Made by a program: the position numbers and the translations under genes
NCBI GenBank assembly: GCA_003599755.1
Contig: QZJO01000009.1
Span: 22,140-86,139 of the forward strand
Reading direction: 5' to 3'
Length of the DNA stretch: 64,000 nt
From: Candidatus Parcubacteria bacterium
Lineage (GTDB): Bacteria > Patescibacteriota > Minisyncoccia > Sungbacterales > SURF-37
Notes under the pieces: generated by a model
The model's database searches: none
Told to the model about the DNA's origin: nothing
What the model saw: the letters and a program-made list of their open reading frames with translations, nothing else
In this document: piece by piece, positions 24,402-40,361 of the stretch
How the letters are laid out: every line of letters begins with the position of its first letter
Numbering within the stretch: position 1 is the stretch's first letter

Positions 24402-25058
24402 CTATCGATTGAGGGCCTTCAAGGAATTCCGGACGCGCCGGACGATGCAGGCGGCTACGGCCGCGCCATGAACTTCCTCGTCCCCATTGGTGAAATACTC
24501 GTGGAAGCGAACTCCTCGTGCTTCCACATTCCAGCTTCGGCACGCCGTGAGCCGGCGTTCGATGTCCTCCGCGTTGTCTCCCCGTTCATGCATGCGCCGC
24601 CGGATGATCTCATCGGGTAGCGCAGCAAGGCCGATACTCAGCAGCGAATCCGCCATGCCGATGCCGGCAAGGTACTTCTGAAGATCTGCTGCGGCCGCGG
24701 GCGGGGCCTCCAAAATCCGCACGGCCCTGCCTTGGAAGCAGGCATGAACGTTCGCCTTGCGCCCGCCGTATCGGTGACCCTGCACGGGATTTATCCAGAC
24801 AAGCTCGCCGGCGTCCCGCAACCGATCGAAGGCCTTGTTCTGGATGTACTCGTACTGACCGGGAAGATCGGCCGGTTTGCGGTGCCGCGTCGTCGTAATC
24901 GGAAATGGCTTGAATTCCACCTCCTTGCTCGCGACGAGCTGTCGCAGAATCGCGCTCTTCCCCGCCCCGCTCGGTCCGCTGATCGTAAGGATGCGTGTAA
25001 CCACGAACTGCCTCCTCTCTTGCACGGTATGCTGCCTTGCCACCAGCAATGCATACAT
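24402..25058 (-). CDS. Guanylate kinase-like P-loop kinase, paralog A
   Basis: Walker A ISGPSGAGKS, a GMP-site-like TTTRHRKP...YEY motif and a Gmk-like C-terminus (IVNDD-like FTNGDEE). The start is uncertain. Confidence 0.6.
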   Translation of the reverse strand: MYALLVARQHTVQERRQFVVTRILTISGPSGAGKSAILRQLVASKEVEFKPFPITTTRHRKPADLPGQYEYIQNKAFDRLRDAGELVWINPVQGHRYGGRKANVHACFQGRAVRILEAPPAAAADLQKYLAGIGMADSLLSIGLAALPDEIIRRRMHERGDNAEDIERRLTACRSWNVEARGVRFHEYFTNGDEEVHGAAVAACIVRRVRNSLKALNR

Positions 25059-25141
25059 GATGCGGGAAAGCAATGCGTTCCGCTGCCGAAACGGCAGCAA
25101 AGAGTTCGGAGCGGCGCGCGCGGGCGCCGCTCCGATATCGT

Positions 25142-25753
25142 TTACGCTCGCACGCCCCACAGATACCGATAGGACTCGAGGACGCGCCGGATGATTGCGG
25201 CGCTTACCGCAGCGCCGGGAACTTCCTCATCATCGTTGACGAGGCATTCATCGAAGCATTCCAGGCGCCGGGCATCCGCATCCCAGGCGCGGCACGCGTC
25301 GAACCGATCCCGGATTTCCGCCGCGGAATCGCCGCGCTTCTCCATGCGCCGCAGCAGCACGTCGTCCGGCGCAGTCAGGTACACGCTCCAGACCGAATCA
25401 TGGATGCCGCTCTCACGCACGTACCCCTTCAGGCGCGGCACGATGTCCGGCGTGAGCGCCATAACGGATACCGCGCTTCCCCGAAGACAGGCGTTGATGT
25501 TTCGCCTGCGCCCGCCGTACCGATAGCCGCCGAACGACTTGACCCAGACGAATTCGCCCTGCTCATCGAACTCATCGAACGCCGGATTGGTGCAGTACTC
25601 GTAGTCGTCCCCTGCATCGGTCGGCCTCTGCAGCCGAGTGGTCGTGCTGAGAAACGGCCGGAACTTCGGTTCCGGATGCTCGAGCAGCCGCCGCATGATC
25701 GTGGTTTTACCCACGCCGCTTCGACCGCTCAGTACAACGATCCGTATGACCAT
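25142..25753 (-). CDS. Guanylate kinase-like P-loop kinase, paralog B
   Basis: Walker A LSGRSGVGKT and STTTRLQRP...YEY. GAGGAGGGGG RBS precedes ATG 25753. Collinear with paralog A. Confidence 0.6.
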   Translation of the reverse strand: MVIRIVVLSGRSGVGKTTIMRRLLEHPEPKFRPFLSTTTRLQRPTDAGDDYEYCTNPAFDEFDEQGEFVWVKSFGGYRYGGRRRNINACLRGSAVSVMALTPDIVPRLKGYVRESGIHDSVWSVYLTAPDDVLLRRMEKRGDSAAEIRDRFDACRAWDADARRLECFDECLVNDDEEVPGAAVSAAIIRRVLESYRYLWGVRA

Positions 25754-25953
25754 CGCCCCCTCCTCGCGAATGAGTGAACTGCCCATGCCTGGCACCAGGC
25801 ATACCCGAAACGAACGACTCCGTCAACCCATGGCGTTCCCGCGCGAAAACATGCCGACATCCCGTTTCGGAATGCCGGCATGCGCTCTACTTCGACATAT
25901 AAAAATGACGTTGCCGCTGCTTCCGTCTTTCCGGGCCAACGTCAACCGCGCGA

Positions 25954-26949: not shown

Positions 26950-27077
26950 CGGTCGTTCCTCCTTTCGGTAGATGAACGTCAGCGGATGAACTTCCTGCCT
27001 GCAGCAGTACCGCAAACGGACCGAAAACGCAATCGAACAGGGGCTGCGGCGTTCTCTATGTTAACCATCGATCCGGC

Positions 27078-27160
27078 TTATTCTGGCGTTCTTAAGAATT
27101 TGAGAATGAATTGCCGTGTGCGGGAGGGCGCTATTTCCGCTGTCCCCTCTGTTGGTTTTC
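27078..27160. repeat. Island repeat R1, carrying a 28-bp palindrome around TTCTTAAGAA
   Basis: ATTCT-GGCG-TTCTTAAGAA-TTTG-AGAAT, followed by a CTGTCCCCT block. It is related to R2-R5. Confidence 0.6.
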
Positions 27161-27528: not shown

Positions 27529-27912
27529 TTACGTTTTGCGTGAGTGCCGCTTAAGCCAGGCAGCGATGTCCGCTATGGATTCCTTCTTCATAGCTACCCG
27601 AACCATGAAGCGCACGATTTCGTTGTTCGGCGCGCTGAATTCGTAACGATTCAAGAATAAAAAGCGCGCCGCCGCTGCAATCGCCGTGCGCTTATTGCCA
27701 TCCACGAAGACGTGGTAATTCGCAATCGCTTCAAGGTAGACGGCGGCTCTGGCGAATATATCGCGATATAACTTCTTGCCGCCGAATGCCGCCTTGGGCT
27801 TATCGGCTAGAGCGGCGAACAGTCCAACGTCGCGCACGCCATGCAAGCCGCCGGTCTCGTCGATGATTTCCGAGTGAATGATGAGGATATCCTCGGCGCT
27901 TAGGTGGCGCAT
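27529..27912 (-). CDS. doc: Doc (death-on-curing, Fic-fold) toxin
   Basis: Fic/Doc core around HVFVDGNKRTAIAAAARFL, immediately downstream of the antitoxin. Confidence 0.8.
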   Translation of the reverse strand: MRHLSAEDILIIHSEIIDETGGLHGVRDVGLFAALADKPKAAFGGKKLYRDIFARAAVYLEAIANYHVFVDGNKRTAIAAAARFLFLNRYEFSAPNNEIVRFMVRVAMKKESIADIAAWLKRHSRKT

Positions 27913-28267: not shown

Positions 28268-28320
28268 GCTTATTCTCAAGTTCTTAAGAACATGAGAAGA
28301 AGAGTGTTGCGGGAGCTACA
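28268..28320. repeat. Island repeat R2, with a perfect 12-bp palindrome GTTCTTAAGAAC
   Basis: TTATTCTCAAGTTCTTAAGAACATGAGAAGAAG forms a 26-bp near-palindrome centred on TTAA, in the Phd/Doc upstream region. Confidence 0.6.
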
Positions 28321-30132: not shown

Positions 30133-30214
30133 ACGCCTCCTTGAAAGAGCATTTTTTTGTCTCGAGAGCTATTTTCTATTATATTATATTTATATAAATA
30201 GTCAAGTCTATCCT

Positions 30215-30310
30215 CGCATTCTCAAGAATGTTGGAATGTTCCTGTCCCCTGCTTCGGATCTGTGGATTCTCGGGGCGGCGGCGATGGAGGCGTCGAGGTT
30301 TTTGATGGTG
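30215..30310. repeat. Island repeat R3
   Basis: CATTCTCAAGAATGTTGGAATG ... CTGTCCCCTG ... GGGGCGGCGGCGATGGAGGCGTCGAGG is about 85 % identical to R5. Confidence 0.6.
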
Positions 30311-30446
30311 GATTTCTATGAATTGGTCGAGCCTGCGTTATTGCCTAGGACTAGGAATGTGCAGAAAATACTGTGTTTCAGAGCTTGGGTTGAAAATAAC
30401 CATAAATCCTAGTACCATTGAAACAGAAGAGTCGTTATGCCGTCAG

Positions 30447-30677
30447 ATGTATAGTGGCATGAAATTTGAGTTTACGCAGCATGCCCGGCAGCGCTGTAAG
30501 GAACGACGCATTAGATTTCAAGACGTCAAAGCGGTTGTCTCGAATCCCTCTACGACAAAGATAACTGCAGCCGGAACTATTGAAGCCCGGGGTAGAATTC
30601 GCAGCAAGACACTGGTAGTAATTTTCGCGGTGAAGCGAGATCTGCGTATAATAATTACGGCATATTATGAAGTTTAG
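30447..30677 (+). CDS. DUF4258-domain protein, toxin-like
   Basis: MKFEFTQHARQRCKERRI matches DUF4258. Its stop overlaps the start of the next gene. Confidence 0.6.
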   Translation: MYSGMKFEFTQHARQRCKERRIRFQDVKAVVSNPSTTKITAAGTIEARGRIRSKTLVVIFAVKRDLRIIITAYYEV

Positions 30678-30885
30678 CTACGACAAATACGCTGACGCAG
30701 TGTATATACGAGCGAAGTCGGCAAAGATTAAAAGAACTGAAAAATTTCAGGACGATATTCTTATTGACTTTGATGCGGAAAACAAAGTCCGTGGTATAGA
30801 GATATTGAATGTATCCGAATGGCTATCTAAAGATAAAACTCCAAGCGTGGAAATCGGAAACCGCAAAATACCCATTCCGGCGTAG
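30667..30885 (+). CDS. DUF2283-domain protein, antitoxin-like partner of DUF4258
   Basis: 72 aa with YDKYADAVYIR...DFDAENKVRGIEI (DUF2283), overlapping the upstream gene by 11 nt. Confidence 0.6.
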   Translation: MKFSYDKYADAVYIRAKSAKIKRTEKFQDDILIDFDAENKVRGIEILNVSEWLSKDKTPSVEIGNRKIPIPA

Positions 30886-30940: not shown

Positions 30941-31055
30941 TCCGGTTTATTCTGATGTTCCTAAGAAGATCGGAATAAATGGAGATGGGCGGAAGATGGA
31001 TGATCGGATCTTTTGTGGGTTTGCGGGGCGGCGGCGATGGAGTTTATGCTGCTTC
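30941..31055. repeat. Island repeat R4
   Basis: TCCGGTTTATTCTGATGTTCCTAAGAAGATCGGAATAAATGGAG...GGGGCGGCGGCGATGGAG combines the R1-type 5' part with the R3/R5-type 3' part. Confidence 0.6.
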
Positions 31056-31462: not shown

Positions 31463-31506
31463 AAAAACATGAGAAGCTGCGGGGCTGATTGAAAGCGAGG
31501 AAATGT

Positions 31507-31625
31507 GACATTCTCACATTCTCAAGAATGTTGGAATGTACTCGTTTCCTGTGGCCTGTCCCCTGTTCTGGGCTGGTGGGTTTGCGGGGCGGCGGCGATG
31601 GAGGCGTCGAGGGGTTTAAGGGGCG
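31507..31625. repeat. Island repeat R5
   Basis: CACATTCTCAAGAATGTTGGAATG...CTGTCCCCTGTTCTGG...GGGGCGGCGGCGATGGAGGCGTCGAGGGG. Confidence 0.6.
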
Positions 31626-32018
31626 GATTTTATGGTTGCTGCCAAAGTGGGACGAGTTCCGAACGATAAAGTGGGATGAAATGTTCGAATTTCCTAGCGT
31701 TTCTCTCGACCAGATGCAGAAATTGCTTGCGCTCCAGTGATGCCGGATCAACATTCGAACCGGCTATTAGTTGAAACTGGCAGAGCAACGCTGCTGGTAT
31801 TTTGTAGTAATGAATGATAATGCCAGCGTGTTAGTATTTGCATTCACAATCTTCGCCATTATAGTCACTCTGTTTTTGCTGCCATCGGTTTTTGGACTCT
31901 ACGCTACGCGCCAACCGTGGCGATTTGAAGAATGGTGCCTCGGCGTTTACGGTAAAGAACGATGTGAACGAGAGCGCCATCTTCTCCGGTGGGAGTTTTC
32001 TGAATTTCAGTAAAAGAT

Positions 32019-32798
32019 TCACTTTCGAGTTCTTAAGTCTTTCAAAAACTTCGAAAATGTCTTCTGTAAATTCGGAAGGCCGCTTAGTGAATCGTTCCCA
32101 AATTTTATCAGTAGAATCGCTCCGGGGACTGCGAAGACAATATACGACAAGAAGTAGAATAGCCACCAGCTTTTATCTGTATACTTTGGAATTACAACTA
32201 AACTACCGCCGAGTCGCACAGCGGCAATTTCCGGTGAATCAATAACTTGCCCGACATTAGAAATCGCACAGAATATTTCCTGCCATCTTTGCGAAACTTC
32301 CGTGATACGAATAGAGGACAAAACTTGTCTGCGCTGCCCGGGATCGATTTCAACTGGCTCACCATTGCCCGGAGGGGTACATTTCAGTGTAAATGCTGTC
32401 GATGTAGCAAAAATTGGCTCGTCTTGTGTTCCCGAAAATTGATCTAGCGCGAGATGATTTTCAATTTCGATGTTGTATTCAATTCTCGGAGATGACCTTA
32501 ACCATCCGATGAATTCGTTTATTTCTTTTTGTTCAACCGCTTCTCGGACCGCTTGAGCAATTTGATCATCAGCTGGATAGAGGATCTCATTCCCCTCTCG
32601 AGCAATTGAGGCTTCGAAACCATATGATGATTCGTTGAATGAGAAGCTAATACCCTTGACGGACGGCGAAATGAAAAAATAACCAACCTCCAAGAGCAAC
32701 GCGACCAGAAGAACACCGAAAATCGGCCAAAAATGCCTAAAGAAAATTTTCAAAAATCTGAAAACTTTCTGGCTAGCCTCGCCAAATTTTGAAAGCAT
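32019..32798 (-). CDS. Hypothetical membrane protein, AT-rich
   Basis: 259 aa with two N-terminal TM helices. No recognisable domain. Confidence 0.45.
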   Translation of the reverse strand: MLSKFGEASQKVFRFLKIFFRHFWPIFGVLLVALLLEVGYFFISPSVKGISFSFNESSYGFEASIAREGNEILYPADDQIAQAVREAVEQKEINEFIGWLRSSPRIEYNIEIENHLALDQFSGTQDEPIFATSTAFTLKCTPPGNGEPVEIDPGQRRQVLSSIRITEVSQRWQEIFCAISNVGQVIDSPEIAAVRLGGSLVVIPKYTDKSWWLFYFLSYIVFAVPGAILLIKFGNDSLSGLPNLQKTFSKFLKDLRTRK

Positions 32799-32911: not shown

Positions 32912-33763
32912 CTATCTGGCAGCAATAGTGCGAGGCACATTTAAACCAGAACTGAAAAAGAGGATCTCTTTGCCCACTCGTGGTCCGCGCGCAGTATGCA
33001 AAAGATGGTGACGCTTTGATCTAAGACCGGCATAAATCTTTCGAATCTCGGCATGATCATCGTAGGAAACAATCCACCTCACCCCTTTGATGCTTCTTAC
33101 TACTTTACCGACGGCTACATGGTCATCCTTGTCGTAATGGTTCATGTATAAAGACTCGCCTTTTAGATAGTACGGAGGGTCAAGGTAGAATATTGTTTTT
33201 TTGTTCTCTAACCTCCTCGCAATTTTCCGAACTAAATCCATTGCGTCCATATGTTTGACATGGATTTTGCTTTTATGCTTGGCAATTTTCTTTATGCGCT
33301 TTATCAGCTCCTTTTTGTTGAAGCGACAATTCAGCTTGTACTCGCCCGTCTGATGAATATTCCCGATAGGGCCTCCGTTGAGAATCCCCGAGACATTTGT
33401 TCTATTCAGGAAGAAAGTAGCAAAGCCGAGCTTAAGCAAAGGTTCGTTCTCTTTATTTTGAAGAATCGCGCGCTGCCTCTTCCATGTTGTAATATTTACC
33501 CGTGTCGCGCGGATGAGTTTTATCAACTCTTCCGAGCGGTGAACTGCGGAGTACCAAAAAGCATAAATAGCCCTATCCTTATCGTTTATTGTTATCTCTG
33601 AAACGTACCCCTCAAACAAAAGGTGGAGAGCCACAGATGCACCTCCGGCATACGGCTCTACATAATGTCCGTTGATATCGTTGCGCTCACAGATTTTTGC
33701 AATAAACTTTGCGAGCTCATTTTTTCCTCCCGGATATCGAAGCGGTGAATAAAATTTTTTCAT
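32912..33763 (-). CDS. dam: DNA adenine methyltransferase (Dam/D12 class, N6-adenine)
   Basis: N-terminal LRYPGGK (motif I/FxGxG region) and DPPY catalytic motif. Confidence 0.85.
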   Translation of the reverse strand: MKKFYSPLRYPGGKNELAKFIAKICERNDINGHYVEPYAGGASVALHLLFEGYVSEITINDKDRAIYAFWYSAVHRSEELIKLIRATRVNITTWKRQRAILQNKENEPLLKLGFATFFLNRTNVSGILNGGPIGNIHQTGEYKLNCRFNKKELIKRIKKIAKHKSKIHVKHMDAMDLVRKIARRLENKKTIFYLDPPYYLKGESLYMNHYDKDDHVAVGKVVRSIKGVRWIVSYDDHAEIRKIYAGLRSKRHHLLHTARGPRVGKEILFFSSGLNVPRTIAAR

Positions 33764-35136
33764 GACAACTTGTTTGTGTCTAAGCTGCTCAGGAGATCGT
33801 TCGGCTCTTGCAGCATAAACTCGATCAAGGGTATCAGATTCTCGCCTTGTGTTCTCGCATCACTCGCGGACGCGCCTACCTTATAATTATGCACTACTTG
33901 ATGTAGCTTTTCGAGGTCGAATCCACGGAAAGCGTTTTTTGTACCAGTGTCGGTGATCAGCTCGGTAAATTTTTCTTTTAACACGGCAAAGTTGGTGTAA
34001 GTGTTTCTCCTACCATGCCTGTCGTAGAAGGCGGAATGAAAATTGTTGTACGATGCAAGCTCCTTATTTTTGTATTTCGTCTCCGCAACAACATATTTCA
34101 GCACGGCCTCAAATGTAACACGAACAAGAGCAACCTTCGCGTTCGCAAACTGCGAGTTGTCGAGGTTATAACATTCGTTAACGAGGCGCTTTAATTTCGG
34201 TGCAACTTGTTTCCGCTCATACGCCGGTCGTGTCTTTACGGATCCTCTTTTACCCGGAGTGATTGGCGTAGTTGTTGGGAGAGATGTGGGCGTTGTACCT
34301 TGCTCGACCTCTGCTTTCGGCAGTTCTTTTGGCGTAAAGCCATGGGTAGACAACCTCTTGAGAAAATCCCCGTGTTCGTGATCCACATCACCATGTGAGG
34401 TTTTAGGCTTAGCGTTAAGATATGCAACGAGGGCGCTGATATACGAAGTAAACTGCGCTTGATCTAGTATCTCGATAACGTATGCAGGCTTGCCCTTGAA
34501 CTGATAGCCGCACTGCTTACTGTACGCAAACAGACGTTCAAAAATAATGGTTTTGCCACCGGCGTTCCCTTTTCCACGACGCAACAATTTCTTTAGGTCT
34601 TCTTCTCCAATCTTTACAGCCTCGTAGTAGAAGCTAGCGAGCTTAATGAGCCGCGATGGGTTTGAGTCGATCTCGCGTATTACTTCTTCTGAGGAACCGG
34701 ATTGGTGCATTTCGTACGCTTTGAGGGCTTTTGCAATCGGATCCCATTCCCTAAAGAGGCTATGCATGTGCTGTTCTTGGATGCGTCGATCAAGCTCTTT
34801 CTCGTCGCGGTACACCAGCACAGGTAGCTGTTTTATATCTACCTTTGCGAGCTCAAGCCCGTACTTCCTTTGGTTACGTAGGGCTTTGACGGCCGCACAT
34901 CTGCGATTACCATCGCGCACAAGAAAATTCTTGCCTTTTGGCACAACCCACAAAGCTTGATCTGGGTAGAAATAACCACGATCAGAGATATTCTTTGCCA
35001 CTTCTTCAGCCGCCTCTGTATAAAGTAGGTATTCAACAAGATCTTCCTCTCTTCCGCTGCCACTATAAAGCTCTGCGAACCTATGATTATTAGGATCGAG
35101 TATGAGCTGAGTTATATTCTTATATTCGATTTTCAT
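33760..35136 (-). CDS. ParB N-terminal-domain protein (458 aa), translationally coupled to dam
   Basis: ILDPNNHRF ... LVRDGNRRCAAVKAL resembles the ParB NPxQPR and GERRxRA boxes. It overlaps the dam start by 4 nt. Confidence 0.55.
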   Translation of the reverse strand: MKIEYKNITQLILDPNNHRFAELYSGSGREEDLVEYLLYTEAAEEVAKNISDRGYFYPDQALWVVPKGKNFLVRDGNRRCAAVKALRNQRKYGLELAKVDIKQLPVLVYRDEKELDRRIQEQHMHSLFREWDPIAKALKAYEMHQSGSSEEVIREIDSNPSRLIKLASFYYEAVKIGEEDLKKLLRRGKGNAGGKTIIFERLFAYSKQCGYQFKGKPAYVIEILDQAQFTSYISALVAYLNAKPKTSHGDVDHEHGDFLKRLSTHGFTPKELPKAEVEQGTTPTSLPTTTPITPGKRGSVKTRPAYERKQVAPKLKRLVNECYNLDNSQFANAKVALVRVTFEAVLKYVVAETKYKNKELASYNNFHSAFYDRHGRRNTYTNFAVLKEKFTELITDTGTKNAFRGFDLEKLHQVVHNYKVGASASDARTQGENLIPLIEFMLQEPNDLLSSLDTNKLS

Positions 35137-35186
35137 GCTTCGTTCTAGATTTGCTATTCCGATTTTGAAAGGCTAGTACTAAAAGG

Positions 35187-38027
35187 TTATGCGCTACTGG
35201 AAGCCGTCGTACGCTTGTAAGCGCTATGTGCTCGCACAGATTTTGTTTTTACCGCTTCACGACCCACATAAACCCCGTATAGCCCAAAAAGAAATTCGAG
35301 ACGTTCCGCTTCCGTTTTGAATGAACGCTTGCCGTAGCAGGCATCAACTGCACGATCGAGCGCGCGATGTGCTTCGAGAAGTTTCAGCGGCATGGTTTCG
35401 GGATTGTAGAGATCAGCGAGCGTGGCGTTCGGGAATTGTTTTCTAGCATCAAGCACGGACTGCGCCGCTTGCTCTACTTTTTCTTTTTGCTCTTTCGTAG
35501 GATTTTCCGGCCATGGAAAGTTGTTATATACGATATCTTTTGAATAACGGTAGTCGGACTTGAGACGGCCGGCTACGGCTCGGACCCATGTCATATGCAT
35601 TTCGCTTTGAAGAACGCCGAAGTGATAGAGAGAGGCGTTAGGAACGATCTTCAAAAGATTGCTGGCAAGCGTATCCGGTTCGATAAAGCCAATTGGAATA
35701 TAATGCCGCCGCTCAGATGAAACTTCTGGTATGACTAAATATGTATCCTTCGGCATATTCTCCACATGGAATCGCGTCGGCGTTTCCGCTAATTTTCGTG
35801 TCGGAGCGCTTTTGCTCAAGCGACGGAATTCAGCTACCGCCTGAATGCGTCGAAGTACTTCAGGCATGGCCGCAATTTCTTCGGGCGCGGCGTCGCCGAG
35901 CCAGAGACACCAGCGTTCATATCCGTTCAGAAATTCATCAGCGCCGATCCAGCGCTTAAAGAATTTTTCTGCCTTCGGTTCTTTTTCAAGAAATGCTTCT
36001 TTTTCTTCTGGTGTGAAAAGATAGAGTCCCCCATCGATCGGTTTATTGCCAATTCCGATTTCCGGAACGTCCGCAATCGGCTTGCCTCGACTTTCAACCA
36101 GTACATTTGGTGCATCCACGAGATATGCATTAATCTGCTGCGCCAGAATCTCGTGCGGTTCACTGCGGATATCCGCATATTCATAAATACGGGGGCGTGG
36201 GTGCGGGGACGTGCCAAACCCGATAATGACGCAGTAGACCGCAGCTTTGCCCGGCGCTTCATTGCTCCATTTGAACGTCCGATGGGCAAAATGAATCTTG
36301 ATTCCCCGTTGATTGAGGAGCCGCCACAGCACAGCGACCTGTTCGCCCTGGGTAATCGAGTTTGTTGAGACAAAGGCACAGGCGATAGCCGTTCCTTGAA
36401 TGTATGCTGATGCCTTGGCGTACCAGCCACAGACGAAATCGAGCGTCCCGGATCCTGGCGCATTTTGAAAAAGATCCGTGATTTCCTTCCGCTGCGTATC
36501 GGACATAAGCTTCGAGCCGACGAAGGGCGGATTGCCGAGGACGTAGGTCAATTGTGATTTCGGTACGGCACTTTCCCAGTCGAGTGTGAGTGCATTATCT
36601 TCAACGATGTGCGGCTGTTCTGTGAGTGGGAGTTTGGCAAACGGCCTTCCGAAGTGGTCGCCAAGCTCGGTATTCGCAATGTGATCAGCGAGCCAAAGCG
36701 AGAGCCGGGCAATGGCCGCTGGAAATGATTCTATCTCAATGCCGAACATGCGTTCGATGGAAAGCTTCGAAATTTTCGTAATATCAAATGTTCCGGGCGC
36801 TTCACTTCCCCTGCGGATATCTTCTACTTTTTCCGCGTAGAACCGTTTGATGATCTCGAGTTCAATCCGGCGGAGTTCGCGATACGCTACCACAAGGAAA
36901 TTCCCGCAGCCGCAAGCCGGGTCAAGAAGCGCTATTGCCGCAATTTTGTTCCATAGGCGATCGAGTTTTGCATGGCTCGTACCGGCATCAGCGAGTTCTT
37001 TATGGAGATCATCGAGAAAAAGCCCGCTGATGACTTTTAGAATATTCTTTTCGGACGTATAGTGCGCTCCCAGATCATGGCGCGCTTTTTCATCCATCAC
37101 TGATTGGAACATGGATCCGAAGATGGCCGGCGATATTCCGGACCAGTCGAAGGACATACAACTCAAAATATTCTCGCGGATACTGACGGTGCCGAATACG
37201 GAAGATAGATGCTCAGCGAACAGGCCACCATTCACGTATGGCAAAGCGGCTAAATCTTCATCGAGCGTCGTCTGACGCTTTTCGATGGGCGTATTGAGAA
37301 CCTCGAATATCGCTCCGAGATGATAGCCGATATCCGAACCATCAATCTCGGTTCTATCCTCCAAGTACATTTTGAACGAGTCGCGATTGAAAATTCCGGT
37401 ATCATCAGCAAAAAAGCAGAATACCAGACGGGTGAGGAGTGTGCTTATTTCATTGGGTGGATAGTTTGATGCGCGGAGCGCGTCATAGAGCTTCCCGATC
37501 GCGCTTACCGCTTTGATCGTAATCGGGCTTTCTTCTTTGTAGGTTCTCGTCTGGAATCCGAGGATAAACGCAAAGCGACGGACGTGCTTGGGAAAATCCG
37601 AAAGCAGGCACTGGAATTGCTCGATTCCGTTTTCACCCTCTAGATCATAGAGACGGATAAGGATGAAGTTTGAAACAATGATGTAGCGCGGTTTTTCTTC
37701 TTCGGGAAGCGCATCAAAGTACGACCCCGCTTGGTCATAGGCACTGTCAAGATTTTCGCCGACCGATTTATGCTCGACAATGAGGACTCCAGGCCAAAAG
37801 AGATCAATAAAACCAGTATTTCCCTTCAGCCGTTTTACGTGCTGTTGATAGCGCGCAACGGTTCTTCGGCGGATACCAAATACCTCGAAAAATTCATTCC
37901 AAAAAGAAGCGTACTCCGCTTCTCGCTCTTCATTTTCCCATTCACGGGCGAATTGCACCGCGCGGTTCCGAATTTCGTTCCAGTTCAGCATGCACGTTTC
38001 TAATGCAGTTTCTGCCGATAAAATCAC
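35187..38027 (-). CDS. Type IIL restriction-modification enzyme, MmeI family (single-chain nuclease, methyltransferase and target-recognition)
   Basis: N-terminal PD-ExK region with FWNEFFEVFGI...GFIDLFWPGVLIVEHKS matches the MmeI-family signature. The central gamma-class N6-adenine MTase motifs are NPPF (LGNPPFVGSK) plus a SAM-binding segment. 946 aa, ~48 % GC. Confidence 0.8.
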   Translation of the reverse strand: MILSAETALETCMLNWNEIRNRAVQFAREWENEEREAEYASFWNEFFEVFGIRRRTVARYQQHVKRLKGNTGFIDLFWPGVLIVEHKSVGENLDSAYDQAGSYFDALPEEEKPRYIIVSNFILIRLYDLEGENGIEQFQCLLSDFPKHVRRFAFILGFQTRTYKEESPITIKAVSAIGKLYDALRASNYPPNEISTLLTRLVFCFFADDTGIFNRDSFKMYLEDRTEIDGSDIGYHLGAIFEVLNTPIEKRQTTLDEDLAALPYVNGGLFAEHLSSVFGTVSIRENILSCMSFDWSGISPAIFGSMFQSVMDEKARHDLGAHYTSEKNILKVISGLFLDDLHKELADAGTSHAKLDRLWNKIAAIALLDPACGCGNFLVVAYRELRRIELEIIKRFYAEKVEDIRRGSEAPGTFDITKISKLSIERMFGIEIESFPAAIARLSLWLADHIANTELGDHFGRPFAKLPLTEQPHIVEDNALTLDWESAVPKSQLTYVLGNPPFVGSKLMSDTQRKEITDLFQNAPGSGTLDFVCGWYAKASAYIQGTAIACAFVSTNSITQGEQVAVLWRLLNQRGIKIHFAHRTFKWSNEAPGKAAVYCVIIGFGTSPHPRPRIYEYADIRSEPHEILAQQINAYLVDAPNVLVESRGKPIADVPEIGIGNKPIDGGLYLFTPEEKEAFLEKEPKAEKFFKRWIGADEFLNGYERWCLWLGDAAPEEIAAMPEVLRRIQAVAEFRRLSKSAPTRKLAETPTRFHVENMPKDTYLVIPEVSSERRHYIPIGFIEPDTLASNLLKIVPNASLYHFGVLQSEMHMTWVRAVAGRLKSDYRYSKDIVYNNFPWPENPTKEQKEKVEQAAQSVLDARKQFPNATLADLYNPETMPLKLLEAHRALDRAVDACYGKRSFKTEAERLEFLFGLYGVYVGREAVKTKSVRAHSAYKRTTASSSA

Positions 38028-38334
38028 ATATTTGCTGTATTAAATCAAGAGCTCCCGCAAACCAATATGCAGTTGCATGAATTTGGCGGTTTACTTAAAA
38101 ATCTTGGAATATTTAAACCAACGAGGACTACCGCAGCTTACGGTAGTCCTCGAAGCCTCAAAAATTATTTTTTTCTCGAGGGTTTTGTATCGCCGTGTCC
38201 CGGTTTCGGAACTCTCTCTACGACATGCGTGTCGGGATAGCGACGCGCTTTCTTCACGGTCGTAAATTCGCCGTTGCGAGCATCCCGGCCACGAAGAGTA
38301 GTTTTTGAGTCCTTACTCATTACGGTTATGGACG

Positions 38335-38830: not shown

Positions 38831-39211
38831 TTAATTTAAATCTTTCAGGGAAATACTTTTGACCACGCTACCGTGATAAACTTTTCTCCTGTAATACAAG
38901 GCTAATCCGAGGAATAGGACGGTCAGCGTCGTAAAAACGCAGGCGCTCCACCAAAGAGCGAGCGGCTGGGAGGGCTCAATGGCGTAAGCAGTCCAGAAAC
39001 CGACTGCAATAGGTGCAATAAGCGCTACGAGCCATTGGAACAACTCGTAATGTCTAAGTTCATTCGCTTGCACAAGTTCCATGCCGATTTCATCGGGGAA
39101 TCGGACGGTTACTCTTGTTTGCCGCCCTATATGGGGAGCTGATTTATTATCAGAAGATTCTTCTTTTATGCGCCCGTTCTTCATCTTCGATCGGGATAAT
39201 TTGGTAATCAT
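38831..39211 (-). CDS. Small membrane protein downstream of lexA, candidate SOS-induced toxin
   Basis: Basic N-terminus followed by two TM helices (FQWLVALIAPIAVGFW ... CVFTTLTVLFLGLALYY). It either overlaps the lexA 3' end by 62 nt or starts at ATG 39082. Confidence 0.4.
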   Translation of the reverse strand: MITKLSRSKMKNGRIKEESSDNKSAPHIGRQTRVTVRFPDEIGMELVQANELRHYELFQWLVALIAPIAVGFWTAYAIEPSQPLALWWSACVFTTLTVLFLGLALYYRRKVYHGSVVKSISLKDLN

Positions 39212-39839
39212 CCATCCGTTCGACCTGAATCACCTGAATAACCTTTCCGAATATTTGGAAGTCCCGCCGTAGAATTATGGCTTTATGCTCGGAGTCCGAG
39301 GTAACTGGGGTGAGTACGATGGCATTATTGCCGAATGCGATTTTCTTAATCACGGCATTGTCGTCGATAATGGCAACGACGATATCTCCGGTTTGAACAT
39401 TCTGCGTCATTTCGGTAAGAACGAAATCGCCGTCGTGGATTCCGGCATCTTCCATCGACGAACCGACCGCTCGGATAACATAAACATTTTCACGGCCGGA
39501 GATCAGGCTCGCGGCCACGGGGATATATTCGTCGAACTGCCGGTCGGCAATCACGCTCGGACTGCCACACCCTGCGGAGGCGAATACTGGCACCTGCAAG
39601 ATTTCCTCGCGAGCTGGATCATCTTCGACAATTTGTATACCGCGGCGGGAAAACCGACCTCGTCGAATTAGCCCTTTACTTTCGAGTGCTTTCAAGTACT
39701 GGGTCACTGACCGAATGCTTTTGGCGCCGACTGCCTTTCCGATTTCAGCCAAAGTAGGTGCTTCTCCCCTCTGGGCAAGACATGCCTTAATAAAATCGTA
39801 AACGCATCGCTGATTTGCCGTGAGCAGAGCCGGTTTCAT
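39150..39839 (-). CDS. lexA: LexA-family repressor (S24 peptidase) with an extended C-terminal tail
   Basis: wHTH N-terminus, an Ala-Gly cleavage-site region (ASAGCG), Ser (GSSM) and Lys (IKKI) catalytic dyad context, and a ~40-aa extra C-terminal extension. Confidence 0.8.
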   Translation of the reverse strand: MKPALLTANQRCVYDFIKACLAQRGEAPTLAEIGKAVGAKSIRSVTQYLKALESKGLIRRGRFSRRGIQIVEDDPAREEILQVPVFASAGCGSPSVIADRQFDEYIPVAASLISGRENVYVIRAVGSSMEDAGIHDGDFVLTEMTQNVQTGDIVVAIIDDNAVIKKIAFGNNAIVLTPVTSDSEHKAIILRRDFQIFGKVIQVIQVERMDDYQIIPIEDEERAHKRRIF

Positions 39840-39911: not shown

Positions 39912-40361
39912 TTACCTCCTCCGCTCCTCCCACTCCGGCACGTCTTCGCCAACAATATAGAAAAAATGGAATGCGCCGGTGGGGCCGATCCAGCGAAAGG
40001 TTTTGACCAGGATCGCGCGGCGCTTGGCGTAGGGCAGCTTCCTGATGGAACGGATGAAAGCGGCAAAGGAGCCGTGCTCTTTTTGCAGGCCCTGGATGAT
40101 GCGCGCGTTTTCTATTGTGCCGCGGATCTTCGCGCCGTTCCTAATAATGCCCGGATCGGCGAGCAAGCGCAGAACGTCACGCGCGCCCATCTTCGCCACT
40201 TTCTGAACATTGAAATTATGGAATGCCTTTCGGAAATGCGGCCACTTGTTGCGCACGACTTCCCAGGAAAACCCCGCCTGGAATACGGATTGCGCCAGCG
40301 CTTCAAGATAGCCGTTGTCGTCCTTCGGGCGCTTGGGCGTGGGAATGTAGTAGTCGTACAT
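39912..40361 (-). CDS. tag: DNA-3-methyladenine glycosylase I
   Basis: Full-length similarity to Tag, including a conserved aromatic/Glu core (FHFFYIVGED...). Confidence 0.75.
   Translation of the reverse strand: MYDYYIPTPKRPKDDNGYLEALAQSVFQAGFSWEVVRNKWPHFRKAFHNFNVQKVAKMGARDVLRLLADPGIIRNGAKIRGTIENARIIQGLQKEHGSFAAFIRSIRKLPYAKRRAILVKTFRWIGPTGAFHFFYIVGEDVPEWEERRR

What the first reader, a model, noticed from the sequence alone, without database searches (positions are those of the whole stretch)
32912..38027. ParB-nuclease-domain protein overlapping a Dam methylase, adjacent to an MmeI-family Type IIL restriction-modification enzyme
A 458-aa protein with a ParB N-terminal domain (NPxQPR-like and GxRR boxes) overlaps dam by 4 nt, a ParB-Dam arrangement otherwise seen in phage and defence contexts.

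Its neighbour on the same strand is a 946-aa MmeI-like single-chain enzyme combining PD-ExK nuclease, gamma-class N6-adenine MTase (NPPF motif) and a target-recognition domain.

Two adenine methylation activities sit next to a ParB-type nuclease, which suggests a composite or layered defence module. The ParB-like protein may act on unmodified DNA in the manner of DndB or PglX accessory proteins. A ParB-nuclease/Dam pair next to a Type IIL enzyme may be an uncharacterised defence arrangement.
Basis: partly seen in the sequence, partly recalled or inferred. Interest (0 to 1): 0.8.

Follow-up and report, generated by a model that had tools for sequence, protein, structure and literature searches.

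The report
PD-lambda-5-type defence pair behind MmeI enzyme
The stretch holds two anti-phage modules of known kinds side by side, an MmeI-type restriction-modification enzyme and a 'ParB/HEPN protein plus adenine methylase' pair of the PD-lambda-5 type, and close relatives of that pair often sit inside other restriction-modification operons.

Summary
All three genes are real and lie at the stated coordinates on the minus strand of a low-GC island.

- **MmeI-family enzyme.** The 946-aa protein is an intact, full-length homologue of MmeI itself. All five MmeI Pfam domains are present, and the D-x9-ExK and NPPF motifs are kept. Published specificity residues predict an NNCGAG-type site.
- **The 458-aa protein.** It is not a partition ParB.
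- **The pair.** The 458-aa gene overlaps by 4 nt (ATGA) a D12-class adenine methyltransferase gene that is not an orthodox GATC Dam. 'ParB/HEPN + methyltransferase' is the architecture of PD-lambda-5, an E. coli anti-phage system that has been validated experimentally but whose mechanism is unknown. The methylase matches the PD-Lambda-5_B model over its full length. The 458-aa protein matches the A models only weakly and belongs to a divergent subfamily.
- **Context in relatives.** A and B are adjacent almost everywhere. In the window's own subclade, 9 of 21 distinct loci place the pair directly 3' of the methylase gene of another R-M system (MmeI, Type I HsdM, Type III Mod), often between the mod gene and the res or hsdS gene.

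The 'layered defence' reading has comparative support. The claim of an uncharacterised system is mostly superseded. Interest is moderate.

The parts
35187..38027 (-). MmeI-family Type IIL (IIG) single-chain restriction-modification-specificity enzyme. The ORF is 946 aa from GTG 38027, but the likely true start is Met13 (ATG at 37991), giving 934 aa.
   Evidence: Pfam MmeI_N, MmeI_hel, MmeI_Mtase, MmeI_TRD and MmeI_C are all present. PADLOC REase_MTase_IIG scores 1181.9 bits. The match to MmeI 5HR4 is 943 bits over residues 14-918, with D-x9-ExK and NPPF conserved. Specificity residues are E768/N790, L791/R827 and K823/D825.
35137..35186 (-). 50-nt spacer between the MmeI stop codon and the start of gene A, with no terminator-like hairpin.
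   Evidence: Sequence read; scan.
33760..35136 (-). Gene A: 458-aa ParB/Srx-fold + HEPN protein, a divergent PD-lambda-5_A-type protein.
   Evidence: Seventeen PADLOC PD-Lambda-5_A models hit, best 2e-17, on the N-terminal stretch plus a C-terminal stretch. AlphaFold model with pLDDT 84.7. At least 383 homologues, all labelled 'hypothetical protein'.
34762..35136 (-). A residues 1-125: ParB/sulfiredoxin-fold domain with the invariant motifs LDxxNxRF and DGNRR.
   Evidence: Foldseek hits to ParB, Noc, KorB and sulfiredoxin. Invariant columns. DndB Pfam hits in 18 of 41 family members, best 1.8e-6.
34312..34761 (-). A residues 126-275: helical middle region. The Foldseek alignments to ParB, Noc and KorB extend into it.
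   Evidence: The role is inferred.
34240..34311 (-). A residues 276-299: disordered, Pro/Thr-rich linker.
   Evidence: pLDDT below 50 for residues 276-299.
33763..34239 (-). A residues 300-458: HEPN-fold domain with a non-canonical motif. R339 and E343 are invariant. In H412-Q-x-x-H416-N-Y418, H416 and Y418 are invariant. There is no conserved Rx4-6H.
33760..33763 (-). ATGA overlap of the A stop codon and the B start codon (translational coupling).
32912..33763 (-). Gene B: 283-aa alpha-group D12-class N6-adenine DNA methyltransferase, PD-lambda-5_B type.
   Evidence: PADLOC PD-Lambda-5_B: E 6.5e-116, 384.7 bits, residues 1-279 against profile positions 1-278 of 291. PF02086. Below the Dam cut-offs. 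It follows A directly in nearly all related loci.
32019..32798 (-). 259-aa predicted membrane protein, 113 nt downstream of B on the same strand. Whether it belongs to the module is doubtful.
   Evidence: No Pfam, NCBIfam or PADLOC hit. No homologue next to A-B in any related locus.
38122..38152 (-). 14-bp-stem hairpin about 95 nt upstream of the MmeI ORF. It probably ends the upstream transcription unit.
   Evidence: I4.

Best explanation
The locus is a stack of two defence modules that both depend on DNA modification. Both were acquired horizontally (low-GC island) and they are probably transcribed together.

**Module 1: the MmeI-family Type IIL enzyme.** One polypeptide recognises an asymmetric 6-bp site, methylates one adenine in it and cuts unmethylated DNA about two helical turns away. 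The published determinant residues predict a site of the form NNCGAG.

**Module 2: a PD-lambda-5-type pair.** It starts 50 nt downstream and its two genes are translationally coupled.
- B is a D12-class adenine methyltransferase that marks the cell's own DNA at a second, still unknown motif.
- A is the effector and sensor. Its ParB/sulfiredoxin-fold half keeps the nucleotide-binding and nicking site residues (LDxxNxRF, DGNRR). Its HEPN-fold domain is of the kind that acts as an RNase in abortive-infection systems.

**Most likely mechanism (inferred, not shown).** A engages DNA through the ParB-like half. It stays silent on B-methylated DNA, or through B itself. On unmodified invading DNA, or when modification is disturbed, it nicks DNA and/or releases HEPN RNase activity. 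That would make it a compact 'R-M plus Abi' device.

**Relation to MmeI.** The window's A-B cassette belongs to a subclade that is repeatedly found directly behind the methylase gene of Type I, Type III and Type IIG/IIL operons. The MmeI adjacency is therefore one instance of a recurrent layering, most plausibly co-expression and co-transfer with a second line of defence. It is not a fused new system and not a fixed MmeI partnership.
For: Identity of the parts:
- MmeI.
- B matches the PD-Lambda-5_B model over its full length at 384.7 bits.
- A hits 17 PD-Lambda-5_A models on both its N- and C-terminal parts.
- Vassallo et al. list PD-lambda-5 as 'ParB/HEPN, methyltransferase'. They call it a compacted RM+Abi system with broad protection and cloned it in a delta-mrr host (PMC9519451).
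- The window's A shares motifs with a canonical full-length PD-lambda-5_A (L008 paralogue, PDLC04009, 9.6e-141) and with a split phage version: LDxxNxR, (D/E)GNRR, RVxxE and L[HND]xxxH.

A-B as the conserved unit:
- B directly follows A in nearly all informative loci from Patescibacteria, Bacteroidota, Gammaproteobacteria, Lachnospiraceae and Cloacimonadota.
- One 67% relative stands alone among housekeeping genes.

Layering with other R-M systems. Fifteen distinct loci have a same-strand upstream gene within 50 nt of A or overlapping it. In 11 of them that gene is the methylase gene of another R-M system:
- MmeI: window, L052.
- HsdM: L043, L053, L054, L075.
- N6_Mtase-Methylase_S fusion: L003.
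- HSDR_N_2+N6_Mtase: L088.
- Type III Mod or N6_N4 MTase: L057, L068/69, L056.

HsdS or Res follows B in L053, L054, L075, L088, L057 and L069. In the window's subclade of the A tree, 9 of 21 distinct loci are embedded in this way, and the host R-M type switches between neighbouring branches.

Horizontal origin: GC is 43-52% across 28-40 kb against about 60% in the flanks.

MmeI specificity prediction: window residues E768/N790, L791/R827 and K823/D825 correspond to MmeI E751/N773, A774L/R810 and E806K/R808D. These specify C3, G4 and G6 (PMC2731914).
Against: - No biochemical activity of A has been shown for any family member. The HEPN domain lacks the canonical Rx4-6H motif, so RNase activity is uncertain.
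- The ParB/Srx domain could be a pure NTP-binding switch and not a nickase.
- A matches the PADLOC A models only partially (best 61.6 bits). Automated tools might therefore not call the system, and functional equivalence to E. coli PD-lambda-5 is extrapolated.
- Co-transcription with MmeI rests only on the short spacer and the absence of a predicted terminator.
- Most family members, especially the Bacteroidota clade, are not next to any R-M gene. The closest relative with readable context (L050, 82% identity) has no R-M gene in the 1.4 kb upstream. Embedding is therefore not required for function.
- The specificity prediction for the MmeI homologue covers only 3 of 6 positions.
Confidence: 0.75

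Rival explanations
1. A-B is simply a small Type II-like R-M system. The ParB/Srx domain of A is the restriction nuclease that cuts DNA lacking B's methylation. The HEPN-fold domain is only a dimerisation or DNA-binding scaffold with no RNase role and no abortive infection. MmeI is an unrelated neighbour.
For: - A and B are translationally coupled, like many R-M gene pairs.
- The catalytic-site motifs of the ParB/Srx fold are invariant.
- The canonical HEPN Rx4-6H motif is absent.
- PADLOC's generic Type II MTase model also hits B at 1.2e-95.
- ParB/Srx proteins can nick DNA (background cited in PMC12839542).
Against: - The HEPN-domain residues R339, E343, H416 and Y418 are invariant across 41 homologues. 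They are also shared with canonical PD-lambda-5_A, which argues for a conserved active or binding site.
- E. coli PD-lambda-5 protects more strongly against T-even phages, whose DNA is heavily modified, than against lambda or T7. That is unusual for plain restriction.
- The authors themselves read it as RM+Abi.
Confidence: 0.25
2. A-B is a guard of the neighbouring R-M enzyme, working like PrrC or RloC in Type Ic hsd loci. A is held inactive while the resident R-M system (here MmeI) is functional. It fires its HEPN domain, killing the infected cell, when a phage anti-restriction protein disables that system. B serves as the silencing partner or bait.
For: - In 11 distinct loci the cassette lies directly behind the methylase gene of Type I, III or IIG/IIL systems. 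It often sits between mod/hsdM and res/hsdS, the same kind of position as prrC.
- The architecture, a nucleotide-binding-type N-domain plus a HEPN C-domain, parallels PrrC.
- The literature already places PD-lambda-5 with the dual RM/Abi strategies.
Against: - The host R-M type varies. Type I and IIL use gamma-class N6_Mtase, while Type III uses beta-class N6_N4 Mod, so a specific protein-protein lock is unlikely.
- Many family members have no R-M neighbour.
- E. coli PD-lambda-5 protects when cloned alone.
- A always carries its own methylase, which a pure guard would not need.
Confidence: 0.2
3. The adjacency to MmeI means nothing functionally. A-B and MmeI are independent cargo of a defence island and lie together by chance or through shared insertion hot spots.
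For: - The island also carries Doc and DUF4258/DUF2283 toxin-antitoxin-like genes.
- An MmeI-type neighbour occurs in only 3 of about 75 distinct loci.
- Between the window and L052, A is 75% identical but MmeI only 48% and B only 44%.
- Other relatives have SIR2, SMC-like or trypsin-like defence-type neighbours.
Against: - Chance does not explain why the gene immediately upstream, within 50 nt on the same strand, is an R-M methylase gene in 11 of 15 tightly coupled cases. It also does not explain why the cassette lies inside the mod-res and hsdM-hsdS intervals.
- Re-assembly of the same gene order from divergent parts argues for selection of the arrangement, or for a strong insertion preference.
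Confidence: 0.3
4. The 458-aa protein is an ordinary partition or nucleoid ParB and the methylase is an orphan Dam used for regulation.
For: The fold of the N-terminal half resembles the N-domains of ParB, Noc and KorB, and the GxRR-type box is present.
Against: - No ParBc Pfam hit.
- The C-terminus is a HEPN fold, not a ParB dimerisation domain.
- No ParA among the neighbours.
- No parS-like repeat array near the genes.
- B is below the Dam thresholds.
- The pair is patchily distributed and mobile across phyla.
Confidence: 0.02

Closest known systems
PD-lambda-5 (Vassallo et al. 2022, E. coli ECOR7 P2-like prophage; proteins RCQ13837.1 and RCQ13838.1)
   Same: - Two co-oriented genes, A then B.
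- A is ParB-like plus HEPN, and B is a D12-class methyltransferase.
- B matches the PD-Lambda-5_B HMM over its full length.
- A shares the N-terminal LDxxNxR and (D/E)GNRR motifs and the C-terminal RVxxE and L[HND]xxxH motifs with canonical A proteins.
   Different: - A belongs to a separate subfamily. It forms about 52 clusters at 50% identity with E<=1e-30, out of 1,492 clusters for the wider family at E<=1e-3. No PADLOC A model covers it end to end (best 61.6 bits).
- It lies on a chromosomal island of an uncultured bacterium labelled Parcubacteria, not in a P2 prophage hotspot.
- Its subclade is frequently embedded in other R-M operons.
- It was not compared directly with the ECOR7 sequences, which were not available in the tools.
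MmeI (Type IIL/IIG R-M enzyme, PDB 5HR4) and NmeAIII
   Same: Full-length collinear homology at 943 bits. The domain order is the same, and the catalytic D-x9-ExK and NPPF motifs are kept. The residue pairs at the three mapped specificity positions equal those of NmeAIII and of engineered MmeI(4G6G).
   Different: Positions 1-2 of the site cannot be predicted. The ORF has a 12-codon N-terminal extension that is probably not translated. It is followed by an embedded A-B cassette.
PrrC / RloC (HEPN anticodon nucleases embedded in Type I hsd loci)
   Same: A HEPN-domain protein with a nucleotide-binding-type N-terminal domain, located inside or next to an R-M operon. This is the conceptual 'R-M + Abi' second line of defence.
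   Different: The N-domain is ParB/Srx fold, not an ABC ATPase. The HEPN motif is not Rx4-6H. The protein is always accompanied by its own methyltransferase. Family members also work or occur without a host R-M system. There is no sequence homology.
GmrSD / BrxU / SspE (DUF262 ParB-like NTPase + DUF1524 HNH nuclease) and DndB
   Same: The N-terminal domain is of the ParB/Srx superfamily, with a DGxxR-type motif, in a defence context related to DNA modification. There is a weak Pfam DndB signal in 18 of 41 family members.
   Different: The C-terminal effector is a HEPN fold, not HNH. The system carries a methyltransferase, so it is self-marking and not modification-dependent. The DndB score is below the Pfam threshold, and there are no dnd, ssp or brx genes nearby.

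Membership tests
PD-lambda-5 defence system | Two adjacent, co-oriented genes, A upstream of B | tested here: met
   A is at 33760..35136 and B at 32912..33763 on the same strand, with a 4-nt ATGA overlap. The same order holds in nearly all related loci.
PD-lambda-5 defence system | B is a D12-class DNA methyltransferase matching the PD-Lambda-5_B profile | tested here: met
   PDLC04018: E 6.5e-116, 384.7 bits, residues 1-279 against profile positions 1-278 of 291. PF02086. DPPY and motif I are present.
PD-lambda-5 defence system | A has a ParB-like N-terminal part and a HEPN C-terminal part ('ParB/HEPN', Table S2 of PMC9519451) | tested here: met
PD-lambda-5 defence system | A matches PD-Lambda-5_A sequence profiles over its full length | tested here: inconclusive
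   Seventeen A models hit, but only partially. The best is 61.6 bits (E 2e-17), covering residues 7-91 plus a C-terminal stretch. PDLC04008 aligns residues 288-439. A canonical paralogue in L008 scores 467.8 bits end to end.
PD-lambda-5 defence system | Confers phage resistance; the methylase is active in vivo | not testable with these tools
   This needs cloning and phage challenge, plus a methylome.
MmeI-family Type IIL (IIG) R-M enzymes | Single chain with the MmeI N-terminal nuclease, helical spacer, gamma-class N6-A MTase, TRD and C-terminal domains in order | tested here: met
   PF20464, PF20465, PF20473, PF20466 and PF20467 are all above their cut-offs. 943 bits to MmeI 5HR4 over residues 14-918.
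MmeI-family Type IIL (IIG) R-M enzymes | Catalytic PD-(D/E)xK motif (D-x9-E-x-K) and NPPF/NPPY methylase motif IV | tested here: met
   GFIDLFWPGVLIVEHKS aligns to MmeI GFVDLFWPGILLIEMKS. GNPPFVG is conserved.
MmeI-family Type IIL (IIG) R-M enzymes | Cuts about 20/18 nt from an asymmetric site; methylates one strand only | not testable with these tools
   This is a biochemical property. Only the site positions 3, 4 and 6 (C, G, G) could be inferred from PMC2731914.
Partition ParB (ParABS) | ParBc domain, HTH and a C-terminal dimerisation domain | tested here: not met
   No PF02195 hit in the protein or in any of 41 homologues. The C-terminal domain is a HEPN fold.
Partition ParB (ParABS) | Adjacent ParA ATPase and parS centromere repeats | tested here: not met
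   The neighbouring ORFs scanned in 24-43 kb show no ParA. There is no repeat array at the genes.
DndB (Dnd phosphorothioation regulator) | Pfam DndB above the gathering score, and dndCDE neighbours | tested here: not met
   15.6 bits against a cut-off of 29.1. No dnd genes among the scanned neighbours.
Orthodox Dam (GATC) methyltransferase | Scores above the Dam subfamily or equivalog cut-offs | tested here: not met
   TIGR00571 scores 66.6 against 114.85. NF008152 scores 15.2 against 441.
PrrC/RloC-type R-M-embedded HEPN nucleases (considered for 'works like') | ABC-type ATPase N-domain and a HEPN domain with Rx4-6H | tested here: not met
   The N-domain is ParB/Srx fold. The conserved HEPN-region motif is HQxxHNY, with no conserved Arg 4-6 residues upstream.
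PrrC/RloC-type R-M-embedded HEPN nucleases (considered for 'works like') | Gene located inside an R-M operon | tested here: met
   Between hsdM and hsdS (L053, L054, L075), between mod and res (L057, L069), and after MmeI (window, L052).

The most novel reading that the evidence does not exclude
The window-type ParB/HEPN + D12-methylase cassette may be a dedicated 'rider' on R-M operons. It would be a distinct PD-lambda-5 subfamily selected to sit directly behind the methylase gene of Type I, Type III and Type IIG/IIL systems and to be functionally coupled to them. One form of coupling would be firing its HEPN or ParB effector when the host R-M system is evaded or inhibited. That would make it a general second-line layer independent of R-M type, analogous to PrrC but carrying its own self-marking methylase.
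Probability: 0.25. Interest if true: 0.65.

Novelty: new member of a known kind. Interest (0 to 1): 0.42.

Why it matters
**Annotation.** A 'hypothetical protein' family found in at least 383 sequences can now be labelled as a PD-lambda-5_A-type ParB/HEPN protein. Current PADLOC A models cover this subfamily poorly, so defence-system censuses probably under-count it in uncultured lineages such as Patescibacteria.

**Biology.** The mechanism of PD-lambda-5 is unknown. One of its subclades is repeatedly wired into Type I, Type III and Type IIL operons, between the modification gene and the restriction or specificity genes. This gives a concrete, testable lead on how an 'R-M plus Abi' device cooperates with classical restriction. 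It also supplies natural constructs (MmeI-A-B, hsdM-A-B-hsdS, mod-A-B-res) for testing synergy or guarding.

**Practical point.** The MmeI homologue carries the residue pairs that experimentally specify C3, G4 and G6. A site like NNCGAG can therefore be predicted and checked.

Tried and rejected
- **Sequence searches on the 458-aa protein.** Pfam and NCBIfam gave nothing above threshold. Profile searches of the whole family and of its C-terminal domain against PDB sequences gave nothing. Only structure prediction plus fold search resolved the two domains.
- **Exact lookup of the window's own protein.** This found no encoding contig.
- **First context survey.** It looked only for MmeI homologues and suggested that the adjacency was a one-off. 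This was revised once the close relatives were read gene by gene and Type I and Type III components were added as queries.
- **tblastn against phages.** Only the N-terminal ~160 aa matched, at about 30% identity, in P2-like phages. Those phages carry three-gene sets (ParB-N protein + hypothetical + MTase on the opposite strand). These are related but not the same architecture.
- **Third conserved gene after B.** The small membrane-protein genes that follow B in the window and in L069, L054, L075 and L052 are unrelated to each other, so the idea was rejected.
- **Island borders.** No tRNA lies at either edge, no integrase was found among the scanned ORFs, and no flanking direct repeats were found (only chance-level 16-mers).
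- **Rfam scan of 26-41 kb.** No match.
- **Repeated palindromic elements at 27-32 kb.** Considered as integron attC-like sites, but the R''/R' core sequences are not evident and no integron integrase was seen. Left unexplained.
- **Partition-ParB and orphan-Dam reading.** Rejected (see the membership tests).

Full report
**1. The observation**

- The 458-aa gene ends and the methylase gene begins in the sequence ATGA, a 4-nt overlap.
- The MmeI-type gene stops 50 nt before the 458-aa gene starts. No terminator-like hairpin lies between them.
- The genes lie in a block of about 12 kb with 43-52% GC, inside a window that is otherwise about 60% GC. This looks like horizontally acquired DNA.
- A 100%-identical protein is on record as a hypothetical protein of a metagenome-assembled 'Candidatus Parcubacteria bacterium', on a contig of 263,839 bp.

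**2. The 946-aa protein**

- All five MmeI Pfam domains are present in order (N-terminal nuclease, helical spacer, MTase, TRD, C-terminal), with E-values from 1e-23 to 1e-89.
- PADLOC's Type IIG model scores 1181.9 bits.
- The protein aligns end to end with MmeI itself (PDB 5HR4) at 943 bits. The nuclease motif D-x9-E-x-K (GFIDLFWPGVLIVEHKS) and the methylase motif NPPF are kept.
- The alignments start at residue 13-14, so Met13 (ATG at 37991) is the likely start.
- Morgan and Luyten (PMC2731914) showed that pairs of residues set the bases recognised at positions 3, 4 and 6.
  - Window E768/N790 corresponds to MmeI E751/N773 and specifies C.
  - Window L791/R827 corresponds to A774L/R810 and specifies G.
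  - Window K823/D825 corresponds to E806K/R808D and specifies G.
  - By inference the site is NNCGAG, as in NmeAIII (GCCGAG) or engineered MmeI (TCCGAG).

**3. The 283-aa protein**

- It is a D12-class N6-adenine methyltransferase (PF02086) with an intact motif I and DPPY.
- It scores below the cut-offs of the Dam models, so it is not an orthodox GATC Dam.
- It matches PADLOC's PD-Lambda-5_B model from end to end (E 6.5e-116, 384.7 bits).

**4. The 458-aa protein**

Sequence libraries say little:
- There is no ParBc hit, only a sub-threshold DndB hit. DndB hits appear in 18 of 41 homologues.
- PADLOC gives hits to 17 different PD-Lambda-5_A models. They cover only the first ~90 residues plus a C-terminal stretch, and the best is 61.6 bits.

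An AlphaFold model built on 41 homologues (pLDDT 84.7) shows two bodies joined by a disordered linker at residues 276-299.
- The N-terminal body matches the N-terminal halves of ParB, Noc and KorB, and also sulfiredoxin, with Foldseek probability 1.0. This is the ParB/Srx fold.
- The canonical Rx4-6H motif is absent. The conserved residues are instead R339, E343 and H412-Q-x-x-H416-N-Y418.

**5. What the pair is**

- Vassallo et al. 2022 (PMC9519451) list the components of PD-lambda-5 as 'ParB/HEPN, methyltransferase'. The system comes from an ECOR7 P2-like prophage (Table S2).
- They report broad protection that is strongest against T-even phages. They needed a delta-mrr host to clone it. [quoted passage not shown]
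- Later papers repeat this reading, and I found no mechanistic study.
- The window's A-B pair has the same architecture.
- A multiple alignment with a canonical A protein shows shared motifs in both halves: LDxxNxR, (D/E)GNRR, RVxxE and L[HND]xxxH. The canonical protein is the L008 paralogue, at 467.8 bits end to end to PDLC04009. The alignment also included a split A from Vibrio phage ValB1MD-2.
- A whole-library profile search finds about 52 clusters (50% identity) at E<=1e-30 for the window's subfamily, against 1,492 at E<=1e-3 for the wider family.
- The window's A is therefore a divergent branch of the PD-lambda-5_A family, and the pair is a member of a known kind of system.

**6. Is MmeI part of it?**

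I collected 40 loci from species genomes, 46 from metagenomes, and contigs of the nearest relatives.

- *A-B linkage.* B directly follows A nearly everywhere, across Patescibacteria, Bacteroidota, Gammaproteobacteria, Lachnospiraceae and Cloacimonadota. One 67% relative stands alone among housekeeping genes. A-B is therefore the autonomous unit.
- *MmeI as neighbour.* An MmeI-type neighbour is rare: the window, L052 and L008/L074.
- *Reading the close relatives gene by gene changed the picture.* Fifteen distinct loci have a same-strand upstream gene within 50 nt of A or overlapping it. In 11 of them that gene is the methylase gene of another R-M system:
  - MmeI: window, L052.
  - Type I HsdM: L043, L053, L054, L075.
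  - N6_Mtase-Methylase_S fusion: L003.
  - HSDR_N_2+N6_Mtase Type IIG-like protein: L088.
  - Type III Mod or N6_N4 methylases: L057, L068/69, L056.
- *The remaining four.* They are a B-type methylase (L014), a DpnI-like gene (L093) and two unknown small ORFs.
- *Downstream of B.* HsdS follows in L053, L054, L075 and L088, and Res follows in L057 and L069. The cassette therefore sits inside these operons.
- *Phylogeny.* On a neighbour-joining tree of A, these cases concentrate in the window's subclade, where 9 of 21 distinct loci are embedded. The host R-M type switches between neighbouring branches.
- *Not one inherited block.* Between the window and L052, A is 75% identical while MmeI is 48% and B is 44% identical. 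The same gene order was re-assembled from divergent parts.
- *Members with no R-M neighbour.* In the Bacteroidota clade the pair lies next to housekeeping genes such as ilvC or a dipeptidase gene. In other loci it lies next to SIR2-like, SMC-like or trypsin-like genes.

**7. Mechanism**

Shown:
- The domain composition of A.
- Intact catalytic motifs in MmeI and in B.
- Translational coupling of A and B.
- Recurrent operonic embedding.

Known from the literature: PD-lambda-5 protects E. coli, and its methylase makes DNA that Mrr attacks.

Inferred:
- B marks self DNA at its own motif.
- A reads DNA through the ParB/Srx half, which in other families binds NTPs and can nick DNA (PMC12839542). 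When modification is missing or disturbed, A nicks DNA and/or activates the HEPN domain.
- MmeI supplies an independent first layer with a different motif.
- The embedding most plausibly gives co-expression and co-transfer, with the cassette acting as a second line when classical restriction is evaded.

Rivals:
- A plain Type II-like R-M system with an inert HEPN scaffold.
- A PrrC-like guard of the neighbouring R-M enzyme.
- Mere island co-location.
- A partition ParB. This one is excluded: there is no ParBc hit, the C-terminus is HEPN, and there is no ParA and no parS array.

**8. Verdict**

It is a layered, two-methylase defence locus. Its ParB/methylase half is a known system type, PD-lambda-5, and the MmeI half is a textbook family.
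- What is new is modest but real: a poorly modelled A subfamily, and a recurrent habit of sitting behind R-M methylase genes of three R-M types. I could not find this habit described in the literature searched.
- I rate it a new member of a known kind, with moderate interest.

Noticed in passing
window 27076-27106, 28268-28298, 30206-30236, 30945-30975, 31506-31536, 32017-32047; also 30241-30320, 31015-31042, 31555-31634: There are six copies of a ~31-nt imperfect palindrome with the core GTTCTTAAGAAC. Three of them are followed by a GC-rich 28-80-nt module (GTGGGTTTGCGGGGCGGCGGCGATGGAG). The copies lie 0.5-1.9 kb apart between small gene cassettes of the low-GC island, and the last copy abuts the stop codon of the 259-aa ORF. 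Several copies fold as hairpins (z about -3.2 to -3.8). There is no Rfam match and no integrase nearby. The elements could be cassette-boundary or regulatory repeats.
   Followed up: partly
window 27529-27912 (-), 30318-30677 (+), 30667-30885 (+): The same island carries toxin-antitoxin-type genes: a Fic/Doc family protein and an overlapping DUF4258 + DUF2283 pair.
   Followed up: no
window 39150-39839 (-), 39912-40361 (-): A LexA-type repressor (LexA_DNA_bind + Peptidase_S24) lies at the high-coordinate edge of the low-GC block. Next to it is a 149-aa 3-methyladenine glycosylase (Tag) homologue that covers only profile positions 21-116 of 177, so it may be truncated.
   Followed up: no
window 37991-38027: The MmeI-type ORF as listed starts at GTG 38027. 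The homology to MmeI, to L052 and to the profiles starts at Met13 (ATG 37991), so the first 12 codons are probably not translated.
   Followed up: yes
window 35547-35561 and 35655-35726 (MmeI-homologue residues 823-827 and 768-791): The specificity-determining residue pairs equal those of NmeAIII and of engineered MmeI(4G6G). This predicts an NNCGAG-type recognition site.
   Followed up: yes
L008 7977-16469 (= L074); also L014 5714-9365 and L042 7962-11578: Some loci carry two different A-type ParB/HEPN genes with one B methylase. In L008 a window-type A is followed by a canonical PD-lambda-5_A, then B, then an MmeI-like protein that lacks the N-terminal nuclease region, then a helicase-like protein.
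   Followed up: partly
L048 1193-3846 (Streptococcus phage Javan645); L049 1131-3828 (Citrobacter phage phiNP); L047 1446-3885 (Vibrio phage ValB1MD-2): In prophages, B-type methylases pair with different upstream partners. In Javan645 and phiNP the partner is an ABC/OLD-like ATPase (hits to AriA, PtuA and GajA models). In the Vibrio phage it is a PD-lambda-5_A split into two genes, a ParB half and a HEPN half.
   Followed up: partly
L093 52-525; L054 4477-4914: DpnI-family (methyl-adenine-directed restriction) genes lie directly next to the A-B cassette in two loci. One is 5 nt upstream of A and the other follows hsdS.
   Followed up: no
window 32019-32798 (-); L069 4797-5372; L052 7244-7741; L054 2909-3430; L075 10298-10879: A small gene follows B in several loci. 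The window, L069 and L052 proteins have hydrophobic, membrane-type stretches, and the L052 protein is DUF2726. These proteins are not homologous to each other.
   Followed up: yes
window 38108-38166: A strong 14-bp-stem hairpin with 26-nt imperfect arms lies about 95 nt upstream of the MmeI-type ORF. It is probably the terminator of the preceding unit.
   Followed up: no
window 24402-25160 (-), 25142-25795 (-): Two adjacent guanylate-kinase-like P-loop ORFs lie just outside the island.
   Followed up: no
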